A stretch of DNA of 64,000 bases from the NCBI GenBank assembly GCA_965203975.1, contig CBDBDT010000001.1, positions 648,029 through 712,028 of the forward strand, in the 5' to 3' direction. The translations under genes were made by a program, and so were the position numbers. The notes beneath the pieces were generated by a model. That model saw nothing but the letters and a program-made list of their open reading frames with translations. It was not told where the DNA came from and did no database searches. Positions within the stretch are counted from its first letter, which is position 1. The number at the start of each line of letters is the position of its first letter. This document shows, piece by piece, positions 24,695 through 59,689 of this stretch. The stretch is from Dehalococcoidia bacterium. Lineage in GTDB: Bacteria; Chloroflexota; Dehalococcoidia; Lucifugimonadales; UBA3495.

Positions 24695-26461
24695 ATGGAA
24701 GCTAACATCTTGACCTTACAAACTTTGTTTGGCTCTGATGTGTCATATCGCATACCCCAATTCCAACGCCCCTATGCTTGGAAAAAGGATGATCAGTGGA
24801 AGCCTCTTTGGGAAGACGTGCACAACCTCACTGGAACCATCCTGTCCCGGCCAGACCGGAAAGTGCCACCGCATTTTATGGGTGCAATAGTTTTGCAGAG
24901 TCAAGAGAGTGGTACGGGAGAAGTAGTGAAGCGGATTGTGGTAGATGGCCAACAACGTCTTACCACGCTCCAACTCCTCATTCGGGCAGCTCAGGACGCT
25001 TTCCAAAGCCTGAATGATACTGAAAGGGCTAACAGATTGTCTGAATTAACCCTTAATACCGAAGACCATTGGGGAGGCGACTCAGATAACCAGACCAAAA
25101 TCCGCCAGTCTAACCTCAACGACCAACGGGCCTTTCAAGAGGCGATTCGAGGCTCTAGTGATGGACATGGGTCGCTGCGGGCCATCGGTGAAGCGTTCGA
25201 GTATTTTAAGGGAGTAGTAATGGAATGGCTGAACGAGGAACCAGCTATCAGGGTCGGCCGTTCTAATGCCTTGGAAGAAGCCCTCACTAAGTATCTGCAA
25301 ATCGCAGCCATAGATTTGGATGATGGAGAAAAACCGCACTTTATCTTCGCCGTCCTAAACACCCGTGCTGAACCTTTGAAAGAGTCCGACCACATCAAAA
25401 ATACTGTAATGTATGAAGCCGACGTCATTGATGACGCCCATAAAGCCGGCGAATTGTGGGGGATGTTCGACAACAATGATTGGTGGCGCCAAGAAACTAA
25501 AGAAGGACGACTGAACCGCATCCATCTGGACAGATTTCTCAATTATTGGATTGTCGTCCGGACGCAAGAGGACATTACATCGGATCGCGTGTCGGCTCGA
25601 TTCAGCAGTTATGTTGAATCTGCCCGTTCATCAATCGAGGACATTACGGCAGATATCCGCAAGGCTGGTTTGATATACCAGGATATGGAGGAAGCTCGAT
25701 ACCCGGGCATAGAAACTTTCCTGCGTCGAATGAAGACCATGGAGCTTGGCGCGGTTATGCCTCCACTTCTGTGGCTCTACACGAACGAAGTTCCAGAGGA
25801 AGAACGGAACAGGAGCATCAAGGCGCTAGAGAGTTTTCTTGTCAGGCGCATGCTCTGCGGACTTGGTTCTCAAGGACTCAACAGGCTATTCATCGAACTT
25901 GTCGGCAGGCTGGAGGCAAGGGGAGCCGACCGCGTTGATGAGAGTCTGGTCGGCTTTCTCAACAGGCAAACCGTCGAAAATCGCATTTGGCCCAAAGATG
26001 GGCTTCTAGCAGAAAACCTTATTCAAAAACCTCTACGGGGTAGCACAAGCCGACAAAGGATGGTTTTGGAAGCCATCGAGATCGCTATGAGAAGCGACAA
26101 GACCAATGTCTTCGAGCAATTTCGGAACCTCACCATCGAACACTTAATGCCCCAATCATGGGAACGTAACTGGCCATTGCCACAAGATGTCTCCGATAGA
26201 AACGAGGCTTCGGAAGTCAGGAACCGCGCCATCAAGGAAATCGGGAATTTGACGCTGGTTACTGATAAATTGAATCCGAGCCTTTCCAACGATCCGTGGG
26301 GAAAGAAAAAGGAGACTCTTGCCCAACATACAGCGCTTCGCTTGAATTGGGAATTGCTTAACCCTGATCCTGAGGTGTGGGACGAGGAGGCTATATATGC
26401 GCGTAGCGAGGAGTTACACGGAAGAATTCTAAAGATTTGGCCTCATGCCGACCTACTCTAG
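24695..26461 (+). CDS. DUF262/DUF1524 protein, GmrSD-like (putative modification-dependent type IV restriction nuclease)
   Basis: N-terminal QFQRPYAW and VVDGQQRLTTL (DUF262/ParB-like). C-terminal TIEHLMPQS ... GNLTLVTDKLNPSLSN (DUF1524 His-Me finger). The gene is visibly AT-richer than its flanks. Confidence 0.85.
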   Translation: MEANILTLQTLFGSDVSYRIPQFQRPYAWKKDDQWKPLWEDVHNLTGTILSRPDRKVPPHFMGAIVLQSQESGTGEVVKRIVVDGQQRLTTLQLLIRAAQDAFQSLNDTERANRLSELTLNTEDHWGGDSDNQTKIRQSNLNDQRAFQEAIRGSSDGHGSLRAIGEAFEYFKGVVMEWLNEEPAIRVGRSNALEEALTKYLQIAAIDLDDGEKPHFIFAVLNTRAEPLKESDHIKNTVMYEADVIDDAHKAGELWGMFDNNDWWRQETKEGRLNRIHLDRFLNYWIVVRTQEDITSDRVSARFSSYVESARSSIEDITADIRKAGLIYQDMEEARYPGIETFLRRMKTMELGAVMPPLLWLYTNEVPEEERNRSIKALESFLVRRMLCGLGSQGLNRLFIELVGRLEARGADRVDESLVGFLNRQTVENRIWPKDGLLAENLIQKPLRGSTSRQRMVLEAIEIAMRSDKTNVFEQFRNLTIEHLMPQSWERNWPLPQDVSDRNEASEVRNRAIKEIGNLTLVTDKLNPSLSNDPWGKKKETLAQHTALRLNWELLNPDPEVWDEEAIYARSEELHGRILKIWPHADLL

Positions 26462-26541: not shown

Positions 26542-27378
26542 CTACCCCAACACCACGTTGTCGATCAGCCGCACGCCGCCGATCCGGACGGCGGTCAGAG
26601 CCATTGCTCCCAGGATGGCAGTTTCCAGTTCAATGAAGCTGCCGGTATCGACGACGGCCACATAGTCCACGCCTTCAACCGACGGCTCCGAGCGGAGCAG
26701 CTCCAGCACCCTTTCCTGTAACTCCGGGACGCTGATTATTCCTGACTTCCAGGCGGATTCCAGGGCCGACAGCGCCCGGTACACGACCGGCGCGGCCTGC
26801 CGTTGGTCCGGGGTGAGGTAGGCGTTGCGGCTGCTCATGGCGAGGCCGTCGGGTTCCCGGACCGTGGGGCACACGATTATCTCAGGCCCCAGGTCCAGGT
26901 CCCGGGTCAATTGCTTGATGACCGCCGCCTGCTGCCCGTCCTTCTGTCCGAAGTAGGCCCGGTCGGGCCGGACAATGCTCAACAGCTTGCAGACCACCGT
27001 CGCCACTCCCCGGAAATGCCCGGGGCGCACCGCTCCCTCCAGCTTCTCCCCGATTTCGCCCACGTCCACCCAGGTGGCAAATCCGGCTGGGTACAGTGAT
27101 TCCGGCGTCGGGGTGAAGACCAGGTCAACCCCTTCCCCGGCGAGCAGTTCCAGGTCTCGGGGCAGGTCCCGGGGATAGGCTGCCAGGTCCTCGCCGGGCC
27201 CGAATTGGGTGGGGTTGACGAATATGGTGGCCGCCGCCGTTAAGTTTTCCGACCTCGCCCGCCGCACCAGGGAAAGGTGGCCTTCGTGGAGGGCCCCCAT
27301 GGTCGGCACTAGGCCCAACGGCCTTTCCGCATTGGCGCAGGCAGCCGCCATCTCCCCAGTGTCGCTGATGACCCGCAT
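26542..27378 (-). CDS. panC: pantoate--beta-alanine ligase
   Basis: PTMGALHEGHLSLV HIGH-type motif. 278 aa. Confidence 0.95.
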   Translation of the reverse strand: MRVISDTGEMAAACANAERPLGLVPTMGALHEGHLSLVRRARSENLTAAATIFVNPTQFGPGEDLAAYPRDLPRDLELLAGEGVDLVFTPTPESLYPAGFATWVDVGEIGEKLEGAVRPGHFRGVATVVCKLLSIVRPDRAYFGQKDGQQAAVIKQLTRDLDLGPEIIVCPTVREPDGLAMSSRNAYLTPDQRQAAPVVYRALSALESAWKSGIISVPELQERVLELLRSEPSVEGVDYVAVVDTGSFIELETAILGAMALTAVRIGGVRLIDNVVLG

Positions 27379-27404: not shown

Positions 27405-29108
27405 CTAAAAAAGTTCATCGATTTCCCGTTCCAGGCGCTCCCGGGGGCTTTCCGACACCACGCCGGTAGGGGGCGCATAGCCCCGGCTGAACTGGGTGTA
27501 GGAGTCCTGGGAGCCGTACTCCCGGGTATGCACCACCACCGGCATCGGGACGGCGTGCCCGAAGATGAGCGCTTGCTGCTTCGCTTCCAGGCGGGAGAGC
27601 ACCCCTCGGAGCTGACGCGCTCCGGCGGTGCCTGCCAGGACGGCGTCAGTGTCCCGGTCGTTGTCCAGCAGGCAGGTGAGGCGGGTGCCCAGCTGGCTCA
27701 TCACCTCGGAGTCGATGGCGCTGGGCCGCTGGTCAATGACCATCAGCGTGACGTTGTACTTGCGCAGCTCCCGGGCGATGGTCCCGAAGATGGTCTGCGA
27801 CGCGACCGCCGGGTTCAGGAACTTGTGGGCTTCCTCGATGACTATGACCACCGGCCGAGGGTCCTTGACCTTCCCGCCCTCGGCCATCTCCTTCAGCTCA
27901 ACATAACGGTTGTGGATGCGCCGGGACAGGAGGTTGCTGAGGAGAATGTAGGCGTTCAGGTCCCGGCCATGCCGCCCGAACTCCAGGACTACGTGCTTTC
28001 CTTTCTCCAGGTGCTCCACGATCCTGGCAGCCGTGTCATAGCGGGTGTTGGCCTGCATGAAATCAAACCGCTTGAACCGGAGCAGGCGGTTGTGCAGCGC
28101 GCCCAGCGCCTGGGCGTTGACCCCGACATCGTTGGCCAGGCCGGCGATGTCCTCGGTACCCTCCATGGACAGGAAGCGTTCCAGCCAGCGCTGCTGCCCG
28201 AACCTCTGCTGCAGGTTGTAGGCCGCGGAGGCCGCCACCTCGGAAAGGTTCAGCGTCTCCCGGAGCAGTTCGATGTCTTCCGGCTCCACCTCCCCGTAAC
28301 CGATGCGCACCACTTCGTCCGCCGAGGTCCCCCGCCAGCGGTCCCGCTCCTCGTCCAGCGTGAAGGTGGAAACGTTGGCCGGGAAAAGCTGTTTCAGGCC
28401 CTTGACCGACACGTTGCGGTCCGAGTCCTGGCCGCTCCAGCCGTATTCGCTGTGCATGTCGAAGATGAGCGTGGACGCCTGCCCCCCCTGGAGGATGCCC
28501 AAGAGGAGCAGCCGGGTCAGGAAGGTCTTGCCCGTGCCGCTCTTGCCGAACACGCCGATGGACCGTTTGACCAGCTCATCCAGGTCCAGGCATACCCTGG
28601 TGTCCATGTCCAGCGGGTTCCCGATCCAGAAGTGCCTCTCGTCTTCCTGTCCGAAAACCAGGTCCACATCCTGCTGGGATGCGGCGTGGGTTGGGGAGAA
28701 GTGGGCCGGGATGGTCTTGGCGGCGACAGGCGCTTCCTGGGAACCCCCCGCGGCAACGGGCATCGTCAGATGGGGCAAGATGTTCACCGTCCCGTAGGCG
28801 ACGGTCCCGGATATCGCCCGGGCCACCAGCGCATCGTCCGCCTCCGGGGGCAAGTGGGACAGGCGGCTGTCGCTGCTGGCCAGGGATACGTCCGTCACGA
28901 CGCCGAAGAACCTCTGGCGTTCTCCCTGGATGGTCACGAAGGAGCCGACCTTCACATCCTCCACGGACACATTCCCGGTGGAGTCCAGCCTGGCCTGCAC
29001 TCCCTGGCTCAGGGAGCCGCCGATGACCTGTCCCAACCGGCGGCCTTCGAGACCCCCTTCCCATGCGCCCGCGCCATTGGGGAACAGCCCGTGGCCGCCG
29101 TCCGTCAC
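27405..29108 (-). CDS. HerA/FtsK-superfamily ATPase (DUF87-type) with N-terminal HAS-barrel
   Basis: Walker A GKSGTGKT (nt 28524..28547) and Walker B VVIVIEEAHKF. N-terminal barrel-like segment LGQVIGG...GSFVTIQGERQRFFGVVTDV. The GTG start overlaps the upstream stop (GTGA). Confidence 0.85.
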   Translation of the reverse strand: MTDGGHGLFPNGAGAWEGGLEGRRLGQVIGGSLSQGVQARLDSTGNVSVEDVKVGSFVTIQGERQRFFGVVTDVSLASSDSRLSHLPPEADDALVARAISGTVAYGTVNILPHLTMPVAAGGSQEAPVAAKTIPAHFSPTHAASQQDVDLVFGQEDERHFWIGNPLDMDTRVCLDLDELVKRSIGVFGKSGTGKTFLTRLLLLGILQGGQASTLIFDMHSEYGWSGQDSDRNVSVKGLKQLFPANVSTFTLDEERDRWRGTSADEVVRIGYGEVEPEDIELLRETLNLSEVAASAAYNLQQRFGQQRWLERFLSMEGTEDIAGLANDVGVNAQALGALHNRLLRFKRFDFMQANTRYDTAARIVEHLEKGKHVVLEFGRHGRDLNAYILLSNLLSRRIHNRYVELKEMAEGGKVKDPRPVVIVIEEAHKFLNPAVASQTIFGTIARELRKYNVTLMVIDQRPSAIDSEVMSQLGTRLTCLLDNDRDTDAVLAGTAGARQLRGVLSRLEAKQQALIFGHAVPMPVVVHTREYGSQDSYTQFSRGYAPPTGVVSESPRERLEREIDELF

Positions 29109-29713
29109 TTTCCAACCCCGGAGAGAATGGTATTGATGCGGGCGACGTCACCGGCCAGTTGCGCCGCCAGCGCCCGCCCCGCCCGTAGGGCCACATCCGG
29201 ACCGTCGGACCGGCCGTCAACCATTCCCAGCAGGCACGACCTGATTACGTCGTCGGAGGCCGGACATTCGGGACGCGCCAAACGGGCCAGGAATCCCGGA
29301 TCGGCGGCGAACATGGCGTATTCTTCATCCCCGCAAGTGTAAACGAAAGCGTGGACCCGTGGCGGCAGGGTCGGCAACCACGGGGCGAACCCCGAGGATC
29401 CCGCGGCGCCGACGGTGACCGCATCAAACCGGGAAGTCAGCAGCCGGGATAGCTGGGGATTTTCCAGCAGTACTTCGTCCTCCGTCTCATGGTCCCGTCC
29501 CCGCGCCAGGACCGGTCGGCTGGGGTCCAGCGGTTCGGTGCGGACATTGTTGACCACTCCATAGATTCCCGGGTGCCCGGCCCGGATGAAACTGCCCAGA
29601 GGCGGCGAGCCATACAGCTCGTAGCATTGGACGGTAAACGAGGTGGAATCTGCGGCGATGACCTCTCCGACCCGCGCCGCCGCTGATTGCTCTCCAGGTT
29701 GACCCACCGTCAT
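29105..29713 (-). CDS. 202-aa protein with stand-alone HAS-barrel-like N-terminus, partner of the HerA-like ATPase
   Basis: ATG 29713 behind GGGAGGGAG. VGEVIAADSTSFTVQ...GSFIRAGHPGIYGVVNNV parallels the ATPase N-terminus. Its stop overlaps the ATPase start. Confidence 0.65.
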   Translation of the reverse strand: MTVGQPGEQSAAARVGEVIAADSTSFTVQCYELYGSPPLGSFIRAGHPGIYGVVNNVRTEPLDPSRPVLARGRDHETEDEVLLENPQLSRLLTSRFDAVTVGAAGSSGFAPWLPTLPPRVHAFVYTCGDEEYAMFAADPGFLARLARPECPASDDVIRSCLLGMVDGRSDGPDVALRAGRALAAQLAGDVARINTILSGVGK

Positions 29714-29757: not shown

Positions 29758-29785
29758 AACCGGACGGGTGTTGACCCGTCCGGTT
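29758..29785. terminator. perfect 12-bp hairpin between ytxH-like gene and the HAS-barrel/HerA pair
   Basis: AACCGGACGGGT-GTTG-ACCCGTCCGGTT. A T-run follows only on the + strand (CTGCGCTTTT). Confidence 0.4.
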
Positions 29786-29844
29786 CTGCGCTTTTGCGAG
29801 ACTGTGGCGGCCACCCGCGGTCCTTGCTAAGGGGTGGCCGTCCT

Positions 29845-30033
29845 TCACTCGGCGGACTGCCGCTCCTCGCGGATCCTGCGGACCCGGTCGATCCCGTCGG
29901 CGATTCCCTGGCGCACCAACTCTCGGGCCTCTTCGCCCGGCTTGGGAGCCAACAGCAGCCCTATTGCCACGCCGACGGCCACGCCGACCACCAGTCCTGC
30001 CACGATGCCCTGTCCATCCGAACTCTTGTACAC
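29845..30033 (-). CDS. YtxH-domain small membrane/stress protein
   Basis: GIVAGLVVGVAVGVAIGLLLAPKPGEEARE pattern. GTG start 9 nt after GGAGG. Confidence 0.7.
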   Translation of the reverse strand: MYKSSDGQGIVAGLVVGVAVGVAIGLLLAPKPGEEARELVRQGIADGIDRVRRIREERQSAE

Positions 30034-32313: not shown

Positions 32314-33078
32314 CTAGTTGACCCGGTTTTCCTCAATGCGTTCCACGAACAACCGGAGCTCGGCGAGCACATCGTCTACCAGCTTGGGCCGGGTCTGCTC
32401 GAATACGAGCTGCTCACTGTCGGAAACCCCGGTGGGGTCCAGTTGCAGCTGAACGTGGTAGGTTCCTTCGGGGTTGCTCAAGGTCACTTCCTGGTTGACC
32501 AGGGCCACCCGCAGCTTGGGTGTGAATATGCTGTGGGTGTAGGGCTGGTCATAGAACTGGGCGACCTGGATGGTGCCGTGTTCCCGGTTGTAGCGGACCA
32601 ACCGCTTGGGGCCAACCGGATAGTGGACGGTTATCTGGGCGTCGTCGAGGGGCTGTCCCTTCAGGTACCCGTCCATCTGGATCGTCCGCACGATAGTGTC
32701 CTGGTTCTGGTTGTAAAGGGCGACGTACATGGTGGTTTGCCGGTTGGTGGTGTCAACCTGGTTGGTGTACCAGACCTGCTGCCCGAATTCGGGGGGAAGG
32801 TTTACCTCCACAAAGCCCTCGCCCAGGACCTCGCCAAAGGTCACGATGGGGATGGGAATGCCGTCCTCGCTGACCTGCTGGGCCGGGACTTCCGGTTCGG
32901 CAGCGGCGGTGTTGACGCCGGATGCAGGCTGGGCGGCGCCGGCCTCGGCCTGGTCGGATCCCGGCAGCAGGAAGGTGAAGGCCAGTCCGCCGACCACCAA
33001 TATCGCAATTACCAGCGCCGAGATCATGATAATCTTGCCGGCTCCTCCCCGCTTCTCCGGAGAACGAGAGACTCTCAT
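32314..33078 (-). CDS. N-terminally membrane-anchored protein with beta-rich extracytoplasmic domain, unknown family
   Basis: Strong SD AAGGAGGA, a single TM (IIMISALVIAILVVGGLAFTFLL), then an Ala/Pro/Glu linker and a ~180-aa domain. It lies 175 bp downstream of the tubulin-like gene on the same strand. Confidence 0.7.
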   Translation of the reverse strand: MRVSRSPEKRGGAGKIIMISALVIAILVVGGLAFTFLLPGSDQAEAGAAQPASGVNTAAAEPEVPAQQVSEDGIPIPIVTFGEVLGEGFVEVNLPPEFGQQVWYTNQVDTTNRQTTMYVALYNQNQDTIVRTIQMDGYLKGQPLDDAQITVHYPVGPKRLVRYNREHGTIQVAQFYDQPYTHSIFTPKLRVALVNQEVTLSNPEGTYHVQLQLDPTGVSDSEQLVFEQTRPKLVDDVLAELRLFVERIEENRVN

Positions 33079-33253: not shown

Positions 33254-34519
33254 TTACAGGTTGGGCAGCAGTTCTCCCGCCCGGGTCACCTCCTCCCACA
33301 GATTCTCGCGGTTGGCCCGCTTGTCCCTGGTCTCGCCCATCATCTCGGTAGCCCGCTTGTAGAACCACTCCACCTTTTCCATGGCGGCCCCTAGGCCGAT
33401 GTTGCAGACCATGACGGTAACGCTGATGGTGTCCGACGTGCGGCCCGGGTAGGTGCCCTTGCGTCGTCCCGCCCCGGGGACCCGGTCCGCGAAGATGGTG
33501 TCCATCATCTCGACGATTTCCTCGGTGGTTTCATGGGGCGGGCCGCTGAACAACCCCAGCACGTTCTGGGCGTCGTACATTATTCGCCCGTCCGCGAGAT
33601 GACCGCACTCGACGGATAGCTCCGCCAGCGCCGAGTGCACCACGTTCTGGGCGCGTTCGATCTGGGCCTTGGAAACCGAGAAATGCCGGTACTTGCCGGC
33701 TCCCGGCCGGAAGCGGCTCAACATCGAGGCGGACGTGTCCTTCTGCGGAGGCACCGAGGATGTGGACACGCCGATGGCCGCCGGGCCCTTGAGGATGCGG
33801 ATCACGTCGTTGGCGTCCAGCACCTCGCCGATATACCGGCGGTCGGTTTCCTCGCCCACGCACATGATGTCCATGAACGAGTCCGCGATGCGCCGGTTGA
33901 TCTGGGCATAGTTCACGCCCAGGGGTTCGTTCTTGCGGACGAACTTCTGGTTGTCCACCAGGAACACCGCGTCGGCGTTGCAGTTTTCCATCACCTTCTT
34001 GATGCAAGTCGCCGTGTTGACCACGCTGTCCGGTTCGTCGTACTGGCTCTCGAAGGGAAGGACCAGCATGCAGTAGACCGGCTTCTTGAACTCTTCCTTG
34101 AGCAGATCGGCCACCACTCCCACCGAGCCTGATCCCGTGCCGCCCGCGGTGGTGGCGCAGACCAGGATGGCGTCAGCCCGGAACACGTCGCCGTGGTCCC
34201 GGATCGTCGACGTTATCTTCCTAGCGTTGCGGCGCGCCTGCTCGGCTCCGTCCGCGTTGACCTTGCCGGCGCCCCTGCCCCGGAACTCGTCGGTGGTCCC
34301 CATCAGGATGGTGTGATCGTCCGTCTGGGGAATGTGGTTGAGACCGTAGAGGTCCCCGGCGCCGAGGTTCATGGCGAAAACGCCGGTGTTGATCGGGTCG
34401 CTGTCCGATCCGGTGAAAATCCGCACGTGCCGGTTCTTCCAGACCCACTCTCCCATGGCAGCAAACTCGTCGGCGATGTTCGAACCGCCTTGGCCGGCTC
34501 CCACGACTACAAACTTCAT
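33254..34519 (-). CDS. divergent tubulin/FtsZ-superfamily GTPase (tubulin-type signature)
   Basis: T1-like VVGAGQGGSNIADEF (nt 34484..34501). CATTAGGTGSGSVG (nt 34127..34147) matches [SAG]-G-G-T-G-[SA]-G. A T7-like VLDANDV lies ~105 aa further on. SD AAGGAGTGAGG. Confidence 0.8.
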   Translation of the reverse strand: MKFVVVGAGQGGSNIADEFAAMGEWVWKNRHVRIFTGSDSDPINTGVFAMNLGAGDLYGLNHIPQTDDHTILMGTTDEFRGRGAGKVNADGAEQARRNARKITSTIRDHGDVFRADAILVCATTAGGTGSGSVGVVADLLKEEFKKPVYCMLVLPFESQYDEPDSVVNTATCIKKVMENCNADAVFLVDNQKFVRKNEPLGVNYAQINRRIADSFMDIMCVGEETDRRYIGEVLDANDVIRILKGPAAIGVSTSSVPPQKDTSASMLSRFRPGAGKYRHFSVSKAQIERAQNVVHSALAELSVECGHLADGRIMYDAQNVLGLFSGPPHETTEEIVEMMDTIFADRVPGAGRRKGTYPGRTSDTISVTVMVCNIGLGAAMEKVEWFYKRATEMMGETRDKRANRENLWEEVTRAGELLPNL

Positions 34520-34965: not shown

Positions 34966-35715
34966 TTATGCGTCAGGCCTCCTTAGAGGCAGTTCCATCT
35001 TGTAGGTAAACATGTAGTGCCGGTGAATGTCTCGGAACCTGTCCTTGAACCGGCTCTCGATATCGTCCATGGCCGGACTCAACCCGGCGGCCGCGAGAAT
35101 CTCCTGGGTGCTCGTACGGATGTCTTCCCAACTCGTGGCTTCCTGGAACTCTTTCCACTGCCCAGGGAAGAAACTGCTGGCCATTTTGGCCGCAGCGGTT
35201 GCCGCTCCGCTCCAGTGAAGAACGGGTTCTCCCAAGAGGTATGGAAAGTTGGTTTGCCGCTTGAGAAAGTCGCCTGTGGCGCTGCCGACGGGGACAACGG
35301 TGGCGTGTGGTTTTGCCACCAGCTTCAGTTCTGCCAAGAGCATCGGGTACCATCGGTTGAACTCCTGCTCTTGGGTTCTGCCCTTGGCCACCTTGGGCGG
35401 TACGGCGCACTTCCCCAGATCCGTCAGGTAGTACGTCTCTCCGGGTTTGCATAGGTGTCGGTGAGCGCCGTAGTTCAGAAGTAAGTCGCCCAGGGAGAGC
35501 AGCAGGTTGAAGCCAGGAGGAGGCATCGGTGGGAACTCGCCGGGCGGGAGTTTATCCGCATCCTCTGGGCTAATGCTGGTCATTTTACCTACGAGAACGA
35601 AGTCCACCGGACCTCGAGGCGCAAGATATCGCAGAAAGTGATGTTGGTGGTCCTTTGCTGACTCACGCCATTGGGTCTGCAGGGCATCGTATTGTTCTTT
35701 GAAGGTCTGAGTCAT
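34966..35715 (-). CDS. uracil-DNA-glycosylase-superfamily-like protein (weak, motif-based)
   Basis: Segments DFVLVGKMTS, YYLTDLGKCAVPP, TVVPVGSATGDFL and VLHWSGAA follow the order of the UDG-fold motifs. AT-richer region. Start at ATG 35715. Confidence 0.4.
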   Translation of the reverse strand: MTQTFKEQYDALQTQWRESAKDHQHHFLRYLAPRGPVDFVLVGKMTSISPEDADKLPPGEFPPMPPPGFNLLLSLGDLLLNYGAHRHLCKPGETYYLTDLGKCAVPPKVAKGRTQEQEFNRWYPMLLAELKLVAKPHATVVPVGSATGDFLKRQTNFPYLLGEPVLHWSGAATAAAKMASSFFPGQWKEFQEATSWEDIRTSTQEILAAAGLSPAMDDIESRFKDRFRDIHRHYMFTYKMELPLRRPDA

Positions 35716-35931
35716 GGTTATCCTGGCGGGGATAATCCTGTCTCGTTTTCCGAGTGGCACTTGCTGGTCCTGGCGTTTAAACAAGCCAGCGGAGCTTAGA
35801 GTCCGCCGACGCATAAGCCTCAAGTCTTCCTACGGTACTATTTTTCTCGAGACATTTCCATTTCTTGAGTCGTTCTTATCTCCGCCTCCTTGGGCCACTC
35901 GTCCCGTCTCTTGATCGACGCGAGCACTGTT

Positions 35932-36312
35932 CTACCGTCTGGCAAGACCGCGATGGGTTCCGTGAGAGGCAACCGGATGAACGACCCGCCAAGCCTTGGC
36001 GGTGCTCCCTTCTCCCTTAATTACGTTTCTTAAGTCAGAGATGAGAACATGCGGGTGCACCTTCTCCTGGGTATACAGGGGCGGAACGTTCACCACCAGG
36101 TCGGCCAGGTCCTGCTCGTCCTTGCCCCGCCAGACCAGTTGCGGGTCCAAGTCGAGCTTGCGCCGCTGGTAAGCCACCCGCAGCGGCGCCTCCTGTTCCT
36201 CCCGCACTAGCGACTGGTACTCCGCCGTGGGGATGTTGGTGCGGGTGTCCTGCTCGTGGCGCAGGGCTTCAACCTGCTTGGCGGCGGCGCGGGTGCGGGG
36301 TGGTCGGGCCAC
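35932..36312 (-). pseudogene. N-terminal fragment of an adenine-specific DNA methyltransferase (R-M remnant)
   Basis: ...DLDPQLVWRGKDEQD...VNVPPLYTQEKVHPHVLISDL resembles, from memory, the conserved N-terminus of type III/IIG-like N6 methylases. No catalytic DPPY/FxGxG motifs. The ORF ends after 126 aa. Confidence 0.5.
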
Positions 36313-36334
36313 GGGTGTACCTCCGGTTCAGTGG

Positions 36335-36757
36335 TTAGTGATTCACAAATGGGTTCAGTATGGTCAGTTGCTCAATGCGCTGGCCGTGCTGCATATCTTC
36401 GCTGTACAGGCGGGCACAGTCGGCCTCAAGCGCCGTTGCGATGACGAGGGAATCGTAGAAGGAGAAGCCGTAGCGACTCCCAATTGCGATAGCGTCCTGG
36501 TAAAGGGCGGGCGAGGGATATATTTGCCACAGGGGGAAAAGCACGTCATCCATCAGGACGCGAAGCTGGCCGACCGGCGTTCCCAGTCTCCCGATCAACA
36601 CATTGAGGGTTTCCTGCACGACCTGAAAGCTGATGCAGCCGGTTCCCTCGATTACACTTCGGGAAACCAACTCCATTGCCTTCTGTCGTTTCTCAGGGAA
36701 TCTATTATCCACCGAGTATACGAGTACGTTGCTGTCCAGGAAGTCATCGGCGCTCAT
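36335..36757 (-). CDS. vapC: PIN-domain toxin VapC
   Basis: MSADDFLDSNVLVYSVD... with a PIN acidic-residue pattern. 14-nt overlap with the upstream antitoxin gene. Confidence 0.9.
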   Translation of the reverse strand: MSADDFLDSNVLVYSVDNRFPEKRQKAMELVSRSVIEGTGCISFQVVQETLNVLIGRLGTPVGQLRVLMDDVLFPLWQIYPSPALYQDAIAIGSRYGFSFYDSLVIATALEADCARLYSEDMQHGQRIEQLTILNPFVNH

Positions 36758-36971
36758 TCATCTCTTCCCGGGTAAACTTTCGTCCGCCAGTGTCTATGAC
36801 TTCGGCCACGGCATTCAAGGCAGCAATGGCCCTCTCACCTTTGCGCTTTCGCCCCACATAGTCAGCCAGCCATTGCCTGAACTCAGCGTTCAGCGTGGTG
36901 TTCTTGGTTGCCGCTATGCGGCGAGCCTCCTCGATCAGCCCCTCATCGGCGCTCAGCGTGATGTTTTTCAT
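36744..36971 (-). CDS. vapB: VapB-type antitoxin (RHH-like)
   Basis: 75 aa, MKNITLSADEGLIEEARRIAATKNTTLNAEFRQWL. Overlaps vapC. Confidence 0.8.
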   Translation of the reverse strand: MKNITLSADEGLIEEARRIAATKNTTLNAEFRQWLADYVGRKRKGERAIAALNAVAEVIDTGGRKFTREEMNERR

Positions 36972-59137: not shown

Positions 59138-59689
59138 ATGGCCCATTCCACATGCGGGCAAATGTTCAATGCTGGAAAGACTCTGTTGGAGCAAAGCGGG
59201 TTGGTTGTCTGGACTGCCGACGGGGATTTTGGTTCCAAGTACCCGGGGTTGAACGATTGCCAGTTTGAGAAATGCGCCGCAAAAAGATTTGGTGGCGAGT
59301 TTGGACGGTATATTTCTTGGGTAATGTTCTCGGTTGGGGCGGAAAACTTGGCGAAGGCCGCGTGCGTTTGCAACGGGATAGTGTCGAAGTCCCCGCCAAA
59401 TCTTGACTACGGTACTCTTGGAGATTATTGGAAAGGTAGGCCAAAGGAAACACCTTATCTGAAACAGCTTTGCGAGAAGCGATCTGTTTTGTATACCGAT
59501 TCAGCGAATTTGCTCAATGGTTATCGATACCTTACTCAGAAGATCAGGAACAGGGATACTCATACCTACATCCCGAATGTTCGGAGAAACGATTTCCCCA
59601 AAGTAGAATTAACCTTCGTTCCAGCGTTCAACATCCTGGTCGAGACAATGAAAAAGAATGGGCATTTCGGGGGTTCAAACCATGCCTGA
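59138..59689 (+). CDS. AT-rich 183-aa protein with HEPN-like R-N-x-x-x-H motif, unknown family
   Basis: Hand-counted lines inside give 42-55% GC, against ~73% in the adjacent ruvA line. RNRDTH at nt 59546..59563. Helix-like [11 protein letters not shown] upstream. 2-nt gap to ruvA and 8-nt overlap with uvrB. Confidence 0.6.

What the first reader, a model, noticed from the sequence alone, without database searches (positions are those of the whole stretch)
27405..29713. Stand-alone HAS-barrel-like protein translationally coupled to a HerA/FtsK-type ATPase, with no nuclease partner, embedded among pantothenate genes
The 567-aa protein has Walker A GKSGTGKT, Walker B VVIVIEEAHKF and an N-terminal barrel-like segment (LGQVIGG...VKVGSFVTIQGERQRFFGVVTDV), i.e. 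HerA/DUF87 architecture. The preceding 202-aa ORF has a stop that overlaps the ATPase GTG start (GTGA). Its N-terminus repeats the same pattern (VGEVIAADSTSFTVQ...LGSFIRAGHPGIYGVVNNV), followed by a helical C-terminal half (…GRALAAQLAGDVARINTIL). Known HerA contexts pair the ATPase with an effector: NurA nuclease in repair, or Sir2 or DUF4297 in anti-phage systems. Here the only partner is a second, free HAS-barrel protein and no nuclease or effector is adjacent. The pair is co-oriented with panC, which lies only 26 nt downstream, while DUF2520-panB sits on the other side. It therefore either interrupts the pan locus or is co-transcribed with panC. A GmrSD-like restriction gene lies 1 kb away. 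I cannot tell whether this is a housekeeping translocase module or a defence-type system, and I do not recognise it as a described one.
Basis: partly seen in the sequence, partly recalled or inferred. Interest (0 to 1): 0.7.

Follow-up and report, generated by a model that had tools for sequence, protein, structure and literature searches.

The report
Extra barrel subunit for NurA–HerA
A small undescribed protein that copies the docking barrel of the HerA DNA motor is always encoded just before that motor in a group of Chloroflexota bacteria, and in the older gene orders it lies between the NurA nuclease and HerA, so it looks like an unrecognised third part of a known DNA-end-processing machine, not a new defence system.

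Summary
A 202-aa ORF (29105-29713, -) ends in a GTGA overlap with a 567-aa HerA-type ATPase (27405-29108, -). panC follows 26 nt downstream, and no nuclease lies nearby. An AlphaFold model of the small protein (pLDDT 87) matches only HerA N-terminal regions in the PDB, so the HAS-barrel guess holds.

The interpretation needs correcting. The pair is a conserved chromosomal module of Dehalococcoidia/Chloroflexota:
- HerA follows the small gene in 79 of 80 genome loci.
- The stop/start overlap is present in 87 of 97 loci.
- dN/dS is about 0.12.

In all basal lineages, and in distant relatives, the order is (selB)-nurA-small-herA. The window belongs to a derived clade in which nurA has separated from the pair. 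NurA loci next to selB but without the pair form the matching clade in the NurA tree, so NurA probably persists elsewhere in the genome.

The GmrSD gene is a separate low-GC3 insertion. panC adjacency is synteny of one subclade. PADLOC finds nothing for the small protein.

Most likely the small protein is an accessory or adaptor subunit of a NurA-HerA DNA-end-processing machine. I found no description of such a third subunit. This is a new variant of a known kind, and the mechanism is inferred, not shown.

The parts
29105..29713 (-). Small protein, 202 aa: N-terminal HAS-barrel (about residues 14-126) followed by a helical C-terminal part (129-197). Family-invariant motifs are TEPLDPSRPVLARG (59-72), NPQ..RLLTSRF (85-96) and LPxLPPRVHxF (113-123).
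   Evidence: ORF. Family of about 200-aa proteins. AF2 model with pLDDT 87. Foldseek top 50 are all HerA N-termini. dN/dS 0.12-0.14.
27405..29108 (-). HerA-type (FtsK/HerA superfamily) ATPase, 567 aa: its own HAS-barrel (about residues 24-142) followed by the DUF87 ATPase domain.
   Evidence: Pfam DUF87 1.9e-27 and HAS-barrel 1.7e-9. PDB sequence matches to HerA chains 8wiv, 4d2i and 9x1l. 65-97% identity across Dehalococcoidia loci.
29105..29108 (-). GTGA stop/start overlap between the small ORF and HerA (translational coupling).
   Evidence: Sequence. The same 4-nt overlap is possible in 83 of 97 loci and a 1-nt overlap in 4 of 97.
28524..28547 (-). Walker A motif GKSGTGKT of HerA.
   Evidence: Translation. 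Invariant in alignment A3.
27819..27851 (-). Walker B region VVIVIEEAHKF of HerA.
   Evidence: Translation. Conserved in A3.
29845..30033 (-). YtxH-like small membrane protein (62 aa), co-oriented and directly upstream. It is a syntenic remnant of the nurA-ytxH-small-herA arrangement. Whether it has a functional link to the pair is unknown.
   Evidence: Pfam YtxH 8.7e-11. Translation. The same position is occupied in L001-L008, L023, L026, L029, L036, L038 and L065. In L168 it lies between NurA and the small gene.
29758..29840 (-). Two strong RNA hairpins between ytxH and the small gene, one with a perfect 12-bp stem. Neither has a U-tract. They may be a terminator or a regulatory element.
   Evidence: RNA fold -66.3 kcal/mol, z = -3.3 against shuffles.
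26542..27378 (-). panC, 26 nt downstream and co-oriented. It is probably co-transcribed. It is a neighbour by synteny, not a component of the system.
   Evidence: Pfam Pantoate_ligase 1.2e-96. No terminator-like site in the gap. Found downstream in 31 of 80 loci, essentially one subclade.

Best explanation
The two genes are the motor half of a three-protein system: NurA nuclease, free HAS-barrel protein and HerA ATPase. The system is inherited vertically in Dehalococcoidia/Chloroflexota.

The ancestral operon was selB-nurA-small-herA. In the clade that contains this window, nurA stayed next to selB. The tightly coupled (ytxH-)small-herA unit moved elsewhere, here to a position upstream of panC.

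The small protein is made in fixed proportion with HerA. It most likely binds at the N-terminal HAS-barrel crown of the HerA hexamer, which in known complexes is the face where the NurA dimer docks. There it would act as an adaptor or modulator of NurA docking and of DNA entry or exit. The whole machine would process DNA ends (resection or degradation) as a housekeeping repair function.

Shown: the fold prediction, gene order, coupling, conservation and NurA linkage in relatives. Inferred: physical binding to HerA and NurA, stoichiometry and the repair role.
For: 1. The small gene and HerA are inseparable. HerA lies directly downstream in 79 of 80 genome loci, and the remaining locus ends at a contig edge. 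A stop/start overlap is present in 87 of 97 loci. Both genes are under purifying selection.
2. NurA (Pfam PF09376, E 5e-24 to 1e-29) lies directly upstream and co-oriented in 11 of 80 genome loci. It also does so in independently found relatives L081/L082, L086, L087 and L168. In 17 of 43 loci that hold both genes, the NurA stop overlaps or lies within 30 nt of the small-gene start.
3. In lineage L083-L085 the small gene stays coupled to NurA by a 1-nt overlap, although no HerA lies within 8 kb. The small protein therefore tracks both partners.
4. In the HerA tree the NurA-linked loci are all the basal branches and the unlinked loci, including the window, form one derived clade. In the NurA tree the 'selB-nurA, no pair within 1.8-10 kb' loci plus L168 form one clade. 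Each of these two clades is sister to the same group of loci (L048, L069, L075, L078). The congruence suggests that the two halves sit in the same genomes.
5. The small protein has the HerA N-terminal fold. Its secondary-structure order parallels that of the HerA N-terminus.
6. In characterised complexes the HAS domain is the NurA docking site. Deleting the HAS domain of Sulfolobus HerA abolishes NurA binding (PMC3326311). In D. radiodurans HerA the acidic HAS motif D78/E80/D81 faces basic NurA motifs (PMC9960219). The most invariant motif of the small protein, followed by an acidic helix (ETEDEV), lies in the equivalent insert of the barrel and is the least confident part of the model.
7. The context is housekeeping: priA, selB, rpoBC, ogg and uvrB in related loci and in the window. 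GC3 is host-like. The small protein has no PADLOC hit.
Against: - No NurA lies in the 64-kb window. I could not scan the rest of this genome, so persistence of NurA in this lineage rests on tree congruence only (NJ trees, no bootstrap support).
- One earlier clue for an unlinked NurA collapsed on checking. P0506 and P0177 lie on the same 2.4-Mb contig, but a close relative (L168) shows that NurA is linked there.
- Profile-profile comparison finds no sequence homology between the small family and its cognate HerA (hhalign probability 0.4%). The Pfam HAS-barrel hit is below the curated cut-off. The barrel assignment therefore rests on a predicted structure.
- This HerA is far below the NCBIfam cut-offs for every named HerA subfamily, at 84 bits or less against cut-offs of 600 or more.
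- No Mre11/Rad50-type genes are linked.
- Canonical NurA-HerA complexes work without any third protein (PMC3326311, PMC9960219).
- No complex prediction or experiment supports the proposed docking.
Confidence: 0.58

Rival explanations
1. Nuclease-independent module. In the window's clade the small protein and HerA form a self-sufficient DNA (or other polymer) translocase that no longer works with NurA. The small barrel protein would replace NurA as the cap on the HAS face.
For: About 65 of 80 genome loci lack NurA within 6 kb, yet the pair is even more conserved there, with HerA at 64-97% identity. Heterogeneous genes have been inserted between nurA and the small gene in 20 of 43 loci, so NurA linkage is loose.
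Against: Related NurA genes without an adjacent pair exist and form the clade expected for these genomes. The ancestral and intermediate arrangements (L168: nurA-ytxH-ytxH-small-herA) link the same proteins. Operon splitting is common for proteins that still work together.
Confidence: 0.2
2. Regulatory decoy. The small protein mimics the HerA HAS face and holds NurA (or HerA) inactive until DNA damage occurs. It would be a competitive inhibitor or chaperone rather than a structural adaptor.
For: It has the fold of the NurA docking domain (PMC3326311). It remains coupled to NurA when HerA is not nearby in L083-L085.
Against: The near-universal 4-nt overlap with herA implies equimolar synthesis with HerA. 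That fits a stoichiometric subunit better than a regulator. There is no evidence either way on binding.
Confidence: 0.12
3. Novel HerA-based anti-phage defence system whose effector lies elsewhere or is the small protein itself.
For: HerA ATPases are motors of several defence systems. The ATPase gives partial hits to PADLOC HerA models, best 7.9e-34, over the C-terminal ATPase only. A GmrSD gene lies nearby. Restriction-modification-like genes follow the operon in L081.
Against: The small protein has no PADLOC hit. No effector domain is present. In the loci recovered the module recurs at comparable chromosomal positions with tree-consistent synteny and host-like GC3. GmrSD is an independent low-GC3 insertion missing from close relatives. 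The ancestral neighbours are selB and nurA.
Confidence: 0.06
4. The small ORF is a decaying remnant of a duplicated herA 5' end and has no function of its own.
For: It has the HerA N-terminal fold and lies immediately 5' of herA.
Against: dN/dS is 0.12-0.14. There are 22 invariant residues over 49 sequences at about 50% identity. The family has 931 cluster representatives of constant length near 200 aa. The overlap with herA is conserved. The family is retained across lineages with GC content from 44% to 70%.
Confidence: 0.02

Closest known systems
NurA-HerA DNA end-resection complex (Sulfolobus, Thermococcus, Deinococcus radiodurans)
   Same: The ATPase is HerA-type with an N-terminal HAS-barrel. 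A NurA-domain nuclease is encoded in the same operon in basal relatives. The HAS face is the known NurA docking site (PMC3326311, PMC9960219).
   Different: An additional, always-present 200-aa free HAS-barrel protein is encoded between nurA and herA. nurA is unlinked in the window's clade. There is no mre11-rad50 linkage. This HerA is not an equivalog of any named HerA family. The described complexes are two-component.
Anti-phage HerA systems (SIR2-HerA/Nezha, DUF4297-HerA, TdpAB)
   Same: A HerA hexamer motor is paired with a partner encoded next to it. The small protein's model also matches the N-termini of these HerAs (best TM 0.48 to TdpA).
   Different: The partner here has no enzymatic effector domain. 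PADLOC gives no hit for it. The module is conserved across related chromosomes in housekeeping contexts rather than confined to defence islands.
N-terminal beta-barrel crown of F1/V1/A1-ATPase alpha and beta subunits
   Same: The HAS-barrel is the fold shared by HerA and ATP synthase. In those ATPases the barrels of catalytic and non-catalytic subunits together build the crown that holds the ring. This is established knowledge and is restated in PMC3326311.
   Different: Here the second barrel comes from a protein with no ATPase domain at all. Whether it joins or stacks on the crown is untested.
Uncharacterised bacterial DUF87/HAS-barrel ATPases such as Synechocystis Sll0284
   Same: The ATPase has the same domain architecture, and these proteins are explicitly noted as undescribed in bacteria (PMC8136920).
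   Different: I have no evidence that Sll0284 has a small barrel partner or a NurA neighbour. This was not tested.

Membership tests
HerA clade of the FtsK/HerA ATPase superfamily (567-aa protein) | Central DUF87/HerA ATPase domain with Walker A and Walker B motifs | tested here: met
   Pfam PF01935 E 1.9e-27, above its cut-off. GKSGTGKT and VVIVIEEAHKF are present and conserved.
HerA clade of the FtsK/HerA ATPase superfamily (567-aa protein) | N-terminal HAS-barrel | tested here: met
   Pfam PF09378 E 1.7e-9, 38.1 bits against a 25.2-bit cut-off. The AF2 model, though of low confidence, shows the barrel strand pattern.
HerA clade of the FtsK/HerA ATPase superfamily (567-aa protein) | Equivalog of a named HerA subfamily (archaeal repair HerA, anti-phage HerA, CedD) | tested here: not met
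   The best NCBIfam scores are 60-84 bits against cut-offs of 600-970.
HerA clade of the FtsK/HerA ATPase superfamily (567-aa protein) | Hexameric ring that translocates DNA | not testable with these tools
   This needs biochemistry or a multimer prediction.
NurA-HerA end-resection system | NurA nuclease gene in the same operon or locus | tested here: not met
   No NurA lies in the 64-kb window. The feature is met in relatives: 11 of 80 genome loci plus L081, L086, L087 and L168.
NurA-HerA end-resection system | NurA present somewhere in the same genome | tested here: inconclusive
   I could not scan the genome. The NurA and HerA trees are congruent and pair-less selB-nurA loci exist. This suggests the answer is yes.
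NurA-HerA end-resection system | Linkage to mre11-rad50 (archaeal operon type) | tested here: not met
   No such genes appear among the conserved neighbours in 80 loci or in the annotated window ORFs.
NurA-HerA end-resection system | ATP-dependent nuclease and resection activity of the complex | not testable with these tools
   This is a biochemical assay.
HAS-barrel domain, PF09378 (202-aa protein) | Pfam score above the gathering threshold | tested here: not met
   17.4 bits against 25.2. 14 of 49 members hit at E<=0.1 and none reaches the cut-off. hhalign against the cognate HerA family gives probability 0.4%.
HAS-barrel domain, PF09378 (202-aa protein) | Barrel fold superimposable on HerA N-terminal domains | tested here: met
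   AF2 model with pLDDT 87. The Foldseek PDB top 50 are all HerA chains, E 4.8e-7 to 5.6e-4, probability 1.00, 120-152 aligned columns in all but one. The viral library gives no significant match.
Known anti-phage HerA systems (SIR2-HerA, DUF4297-HerA, and others in PADLOC) | Adjacent effector gene (SIR2, DUF4297, nuclease) recognised by defence models | tested here: not met
   PADLOC gives no hit for the small protein. The HerA hits cover mainly residues 405-530 only. The neighbours are ytxH and panC.
NurA nuclease (as the identity of the 202-aa protein) | NurA or RNase-H-like fold or domain | tested here: not met
   No Pfam NurA hit. The fold matches are to HerA barrels only.

The most novel reading that the evidence does not exclude
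The free HAS-barrel protein assembles into its own ring (or a set of six caps) on the HerA crown. This would create a two-tier docking platform that uncouples the motor from a fixed nuclease. HerA could then work with a NurA encoded elsewhere, with other partners, or as a nuclease-free translocase in most of this Chloroflexota clade. That would be a previously unseen way of building a HerA machine, reminiscent of the mixed catalytic and non-catalytic barrel crowns of rotary ATPases.
Probability: 0.25. Interest if true: 0.7.

Novelty: new variant of a known kind. Interest (0 to 1): 0.5.

Why it matters
NurA-HerA is treated as a two-protein machine, and structural models of DNA end resection rest on the NurA dimer docking directly on the HerA HAS-barrel ring. 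Here a conserved third protein is itself a free copy of that docking domain. It is encoded between the two known subunits and is more tightly coupled to the motor than the nuclease is. This suggests that in a widespread group of environmental bacteria, including marine SAR202-type Dehalococcoidia, docking is mediated or regulated differently.

The finding gives a function-linked annotation to a family of about 900 'hypothetical protein' clusters that have no Pfam family. It shows that bacterial HerA genes without an adjacent nuclease need not be orphan or defence genes. It also offers a simple testable system of three soluble proteins for asking how HAS barrels recruit partners.

Tried and rejected
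1. Sequence searches of the small protein against the PDB, both single-sequence and profile, gave nothing meaningful.
2. hhalign of the small family against the cognate HerA family found no homology at the N-terminus. It returned only a chance-level match to the HerA C-terminus. A recent herA duplication is therefore not demonstrable from sequence.
3. PADLOC and NCBIfam gave no hit for the small protein.
4. I looked for a conserved fourth gene. ORFs between nurA and the small gene are heterogeneous (RAYT-like transposase, LOG-like, HicB-like, glutaminyl-cyclase-like and others), so none is a conserved component. Clustering of neighbours in 80 loci found nothing universal beyond the pair.
5. 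I first took the shared contig length of NurA P0506 and HerA P0177 (2,399,274 bp) as evidence for an unlinked NurA in the derived clade. Look-ups of both proteins failed. A close relative (L168) then showed that NurA is actually linked there through two ytxH genes, so I withdrew that argument.
6. Cluster look-ups of distant family members gave no taxonomy. The spread of the family beyond Chloroflexota therefore stays open. L083 and L086 have 44-48% GC and unknown origin.
7. The AF2 model of HerA from a shallow alignment was poor (pLDDT 63). I did not use it for fold search.
8. Foldseek against viral structures gave no significant match.
10. The Iyer et al. 2004 FtsK-HerA paper is not held in the library.
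11. The promoter and terminator scan was at chance level.
Full report
**1. The observation**

The region holds two co-oriented minus-strand ORFs, 29105-29713 (202 aa) and 27405-29108 (567 aa). The TGA stop of the first overlaps the GTG start of the second (GTGA).

The large protein is a HerA-type ATPase. Pfam gives DUF87/HerA central domain at E 1.9e-27 and HAS-barrel at E 1.7e-9. Walker A GKSGTGKT and Walker B VVIVIEEAHKF lie at the stated places. Its PDB sequence matches are HerA chains.

panC follows 26 nt downstream. DUF2520-panB lies divergently upstream. A GmrSD gene sits beyond panC. The whole 64-kb window contains no NurA-like sequence.

**2. The small protein is a free HAS-barrel**

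Sequence evidence alone is weak:
- The Pfam HAS-barrel hit has E 0.0049 and lies below the curated cut-off.
- 14 of 49 family members hit the model, and none reaches the cut-off.
- PDB sequence searches give nothing.
- Profile-profile comparison with the cognate HerA family gives probability 0.4%.

The predicted structure settles the fold. An AlphaFold2 model built on a 49-sequence alignment is confident (pLDDT 87, pTM 0.83). All 50 best Foldseek matches in the PDB are N-terminal regions of HerA proteins. They include Sulfolobus, Thermococcus and Deinococcus HerA, SIR2-HerA, DUF4297-HerA and TdpA. E-values run from 4.8e-7 to 5.6e-4 over about 120-150 columns. The viral structure library gives no significant match.

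The order of secondary-structure elements is four strands, an insert with short helices, three strands, then a helix. The low-confidence model of this locus's own HerA N-terminus shows a parallel order.

After the barrel come about 70 helical residues with no recognisable relative.

The family's most invariant residues lie in three motifs: TEPLDPSRPVLARG, NPQ..RLLTSRF and LPxLPPRVHxF. The first two are in the barrel insert, which is the least confident part of the model.

**3. The gene pair is real, conserved and chromosomal**

- The small protein defines a family of about 200-aa 'hypothetical proteins' with no Pfam family. It has 223 hits in the word-indexed search and 931 cluster representatives at E<=1e-3 in the exhaustive search.
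- A scan of one genome per species found 116 genomes. The 80 loci retrieved are nearly all labelled Dehalococcoidia, Chloroflexota or SAR202.
- HerA lies directly downstream in 79 of 80 loci, and the remaining contig ends there.
- In 97 loci with both genes, a HerA start codon overlaps the small-gene stop by 4 nt in 83 and by 1 nt in 4. The script picks the in-frame start nearest the stop, so this is an upper estimate, but it is far beyond chance.
- dN/dS against close relatives is 0.12-0.14 for the small gene and 0.06 for HerA.
- HerA GC3 (0.87) matches host genes.
- Clustering all ORFs of the 80 loci shows that only these two genes are universal.

**4. The nuclease partner exists at family level**

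In 11 of 80 genome loci a NurA-domain protein of about 402 aa (PF09376, E 5e-24) lies immediately upstream and co-oriented.

Independent look-ups of other family members gave these arrangements:
- L081/L082: selB-DUF429-nurA-small-herA.
- L086 (44% GC): nurA-small-herA.
- L087: selB-nurA-small-herA.
- L168: selB-nurA-ytxH-ytxH-small-herA.
- L083-L085 (48% GC): nurA-small followed by an ankyrin-repeat protein, with no HerA within 8 kb.

Two database 'long' family members are simply frameshift fusions of NurA with the small protein or of the small protein with HerA.

Among the 43 loci with both genes, the NurA stop overlaps or lies within 30 nt of the small-gene start in 17. In 20 there are inserts of 0.4-4.4 kb holding unrelated genes, so there is no conserved fourth component.

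**5. Evolutionary reading**

A neighbour-joining tree of HerA places all NurA-linked loci on the basal branches. All unlinked loci, including the window, fall in one derived clade, which is sister to L048/L069/L075/L078. Within that clade the loci with panC downstream form essentially one subclade that contains the window.

A metagenome scan with the NurA profile found many selB-nurA loci that have no small gene or HerA within 1.8-10 kb. In the NurA tree these loci, together with L168, form one clade that is sister to L048/L057/L069/L075/L078.

The two trees are congruent. The simplest reading is that the pair-less NurA genes and the NurA-less pairs are two halves of the same genomes. These are NJ trees without bootstrap support, and no single genome was checked, so this remains an inference.

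The window keeps a ytxH gene (29845-30033, Pfam 8.7e-11) directly upstream of the small gene. The same is seen in L001-L008, L023, L026, L029, L036, L038 and L065, and in the linked intermediate L168. This fits a break between nurA and ytxH.

I first thought that a shared contig length proved an unlinked NurA. L168 showed that this case is linked, and I dropped the argument.

**6. What the neighbours mean**

GmrSD has GC3 0.53 against 0.82-0.88 for its neighbours. It is missing between panC and etfA in L001, L003, L005 and L006. It is an independent insertion.

panC adjacency is subclade synteny (31 of 80 loci). DUF2520-panB upstream occurs only in the closest relatives. There is no terminator-like site between herA and panC, so co-transcription is plausible but unproven.

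The rest of the window is ordinary chromosome: an MFS transporter, a TPP enzyme, a Rieske oxygenase, GH15, ETF, luciferase-like monooxygenases and uvrB.

PADLOC has no model for the small protein and gives only partial generic HerA hits for the ATPase. NCBIfam scores are far below every HerA equivalog cut-off. A defence role is unlikely.

**7. Mechanism**

Established knowledge: in Sulfolobus, removing the HerA HAS domain abolishes NurA binding (PMC3326311). In D. radiodurans the NurA dimer contacts the HAS ring, with the acidic HerA motif D78/E80/D81 facing basic NurA motifs (PMC9960219).

Here a free copy of that docking domain is synthesised in fixed proportion with HerA. Ancestrally it is encoded between NurA and HerA, and in one lineage it stays with NurA.

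My best-supported model (confidence about 0.58) is that the small protein is a stoichiometric accessory subunit sitting at the HAS face. It would mediate or tune NurA docking in a housekeeping DNA-end-processing machine. The conserved insert loop plus acidic helix (residues 59-91) would be the partner-binding surface.

Rivals:
- A nuclease-free translocase in the derived clade (0.2).
- A decoy or inhibitor of NurA docking (0.12).
- A defence system (0.06).
- A functionless remnant (0.02, contradicted by the conservation data).

Binding, stoichiometry and activity are all inferred. I could not run a multimer prediction.

**8. Comparison and novelty**

The system works like, and is evolutionarily tied to, NurA-HerA. 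It fails two membership features locally: there is no adjacent NurA, and this HerA is not an equivalog of any named HerA. It also adds a component absent from the described two-protein complexes.

Literature searches found no description of a stand-alone HAS-barrel partner or of a three-gene nurA-X-herA operon. One paper notes that bacterial DUF87/HAS-barrel proteins are 'largely undescribed' (PMC8136920).

I rate this a new variant of a known kind, with interest 0.5. It is a credible, testable third subunit for a well-studied machine, but it occurs in uncultured lineages and its mechanism is only inferred.

Noticed in passing
window 33254-34519 (-): A 421-aa tubulin/FtsZ-superfamily protein whose best matches are CetZ-type. 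Pfam gives Tubulin 8.4e-22 and CetZ_C 4.3e-9. The best PDB match is 4b46 (E 8.6e-23 over nearly the full length), followed by 4b45 and 3zid. CetZ is usually regarded as archaeal, yet here it sits in a Chloroflexota chromosome. It is 88-98% conserved in L002-L005. Next to it is a 254-aa ORF (32314-33078, -) with no Pfam hit.
   Followed up: partly
window 24695-26461 (+): The GmrSD-type type IV restriction gene has GC3 0.53 against 0.82-0.88 in flanking genes. It is absent between panC and etfA in the close relatives L001, L003, L005 and L006, but present at 79% identity in L065. It looks like a recent, independent insertion.
   Followed up: yes
window 29758-29840 (-): Two strong hairpins lie between the ytxH stop and the small-gene start, one with a perfect 12-bp stem (AACCGGACGGGU...ACCCGUCCGGUU). 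Neither has a U-tract. The fold has z = -3.3 against shuffles. Only about 40 nt remain before the ATG, so the promoter of the pair is unclear.
   Followed up: partly
window 34966-35823 (-), 36227-36775 (+), 59138-59689 (+): These ORFs have low GC3 (0.55-0.67) compared with about 0.85 for the rest of the window. The first two have no Pfam hit. They may be further foreign insertions.
   Followed up: no
L083 6820-11542 (also L084, L085): In a lineage with 48% GC the small barrel gene is coupled by a 1-nt overlap to NurA. It is followed by a 966-aa ankyrin-repeat protein instead of HerA, and no HerA lies within 8 kb.
   Followed up: partly
L109, L113, L115, L126 (between nurA and the small gene); also L121-L167: The nurA/small-gene junction is an insertion hotspot. 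IS200/RAYT-like transposase ORFs and other unrelated genes (LOG-like, HicB-like, glutaminyl-cyclase-like, restriction-like) are inserted there, while the small-herA junction stays intact.
   Followed up: partly
L006 6001-6900; L001/L006 and L039/L040: In L006 the small ORF matches only over its first ~110 residues, and the database protein P0006 is 309 aa. This is probably a frameshift in a long-read MAG. The same assembly carries near-identical copies of the locus at the ends of two contigs (CBDBDE01 contigs 1 and 2), and CAXXFI010000002.1 carries two copies. These look like assembly duplications rather than true paralogues.
   Followed up: no
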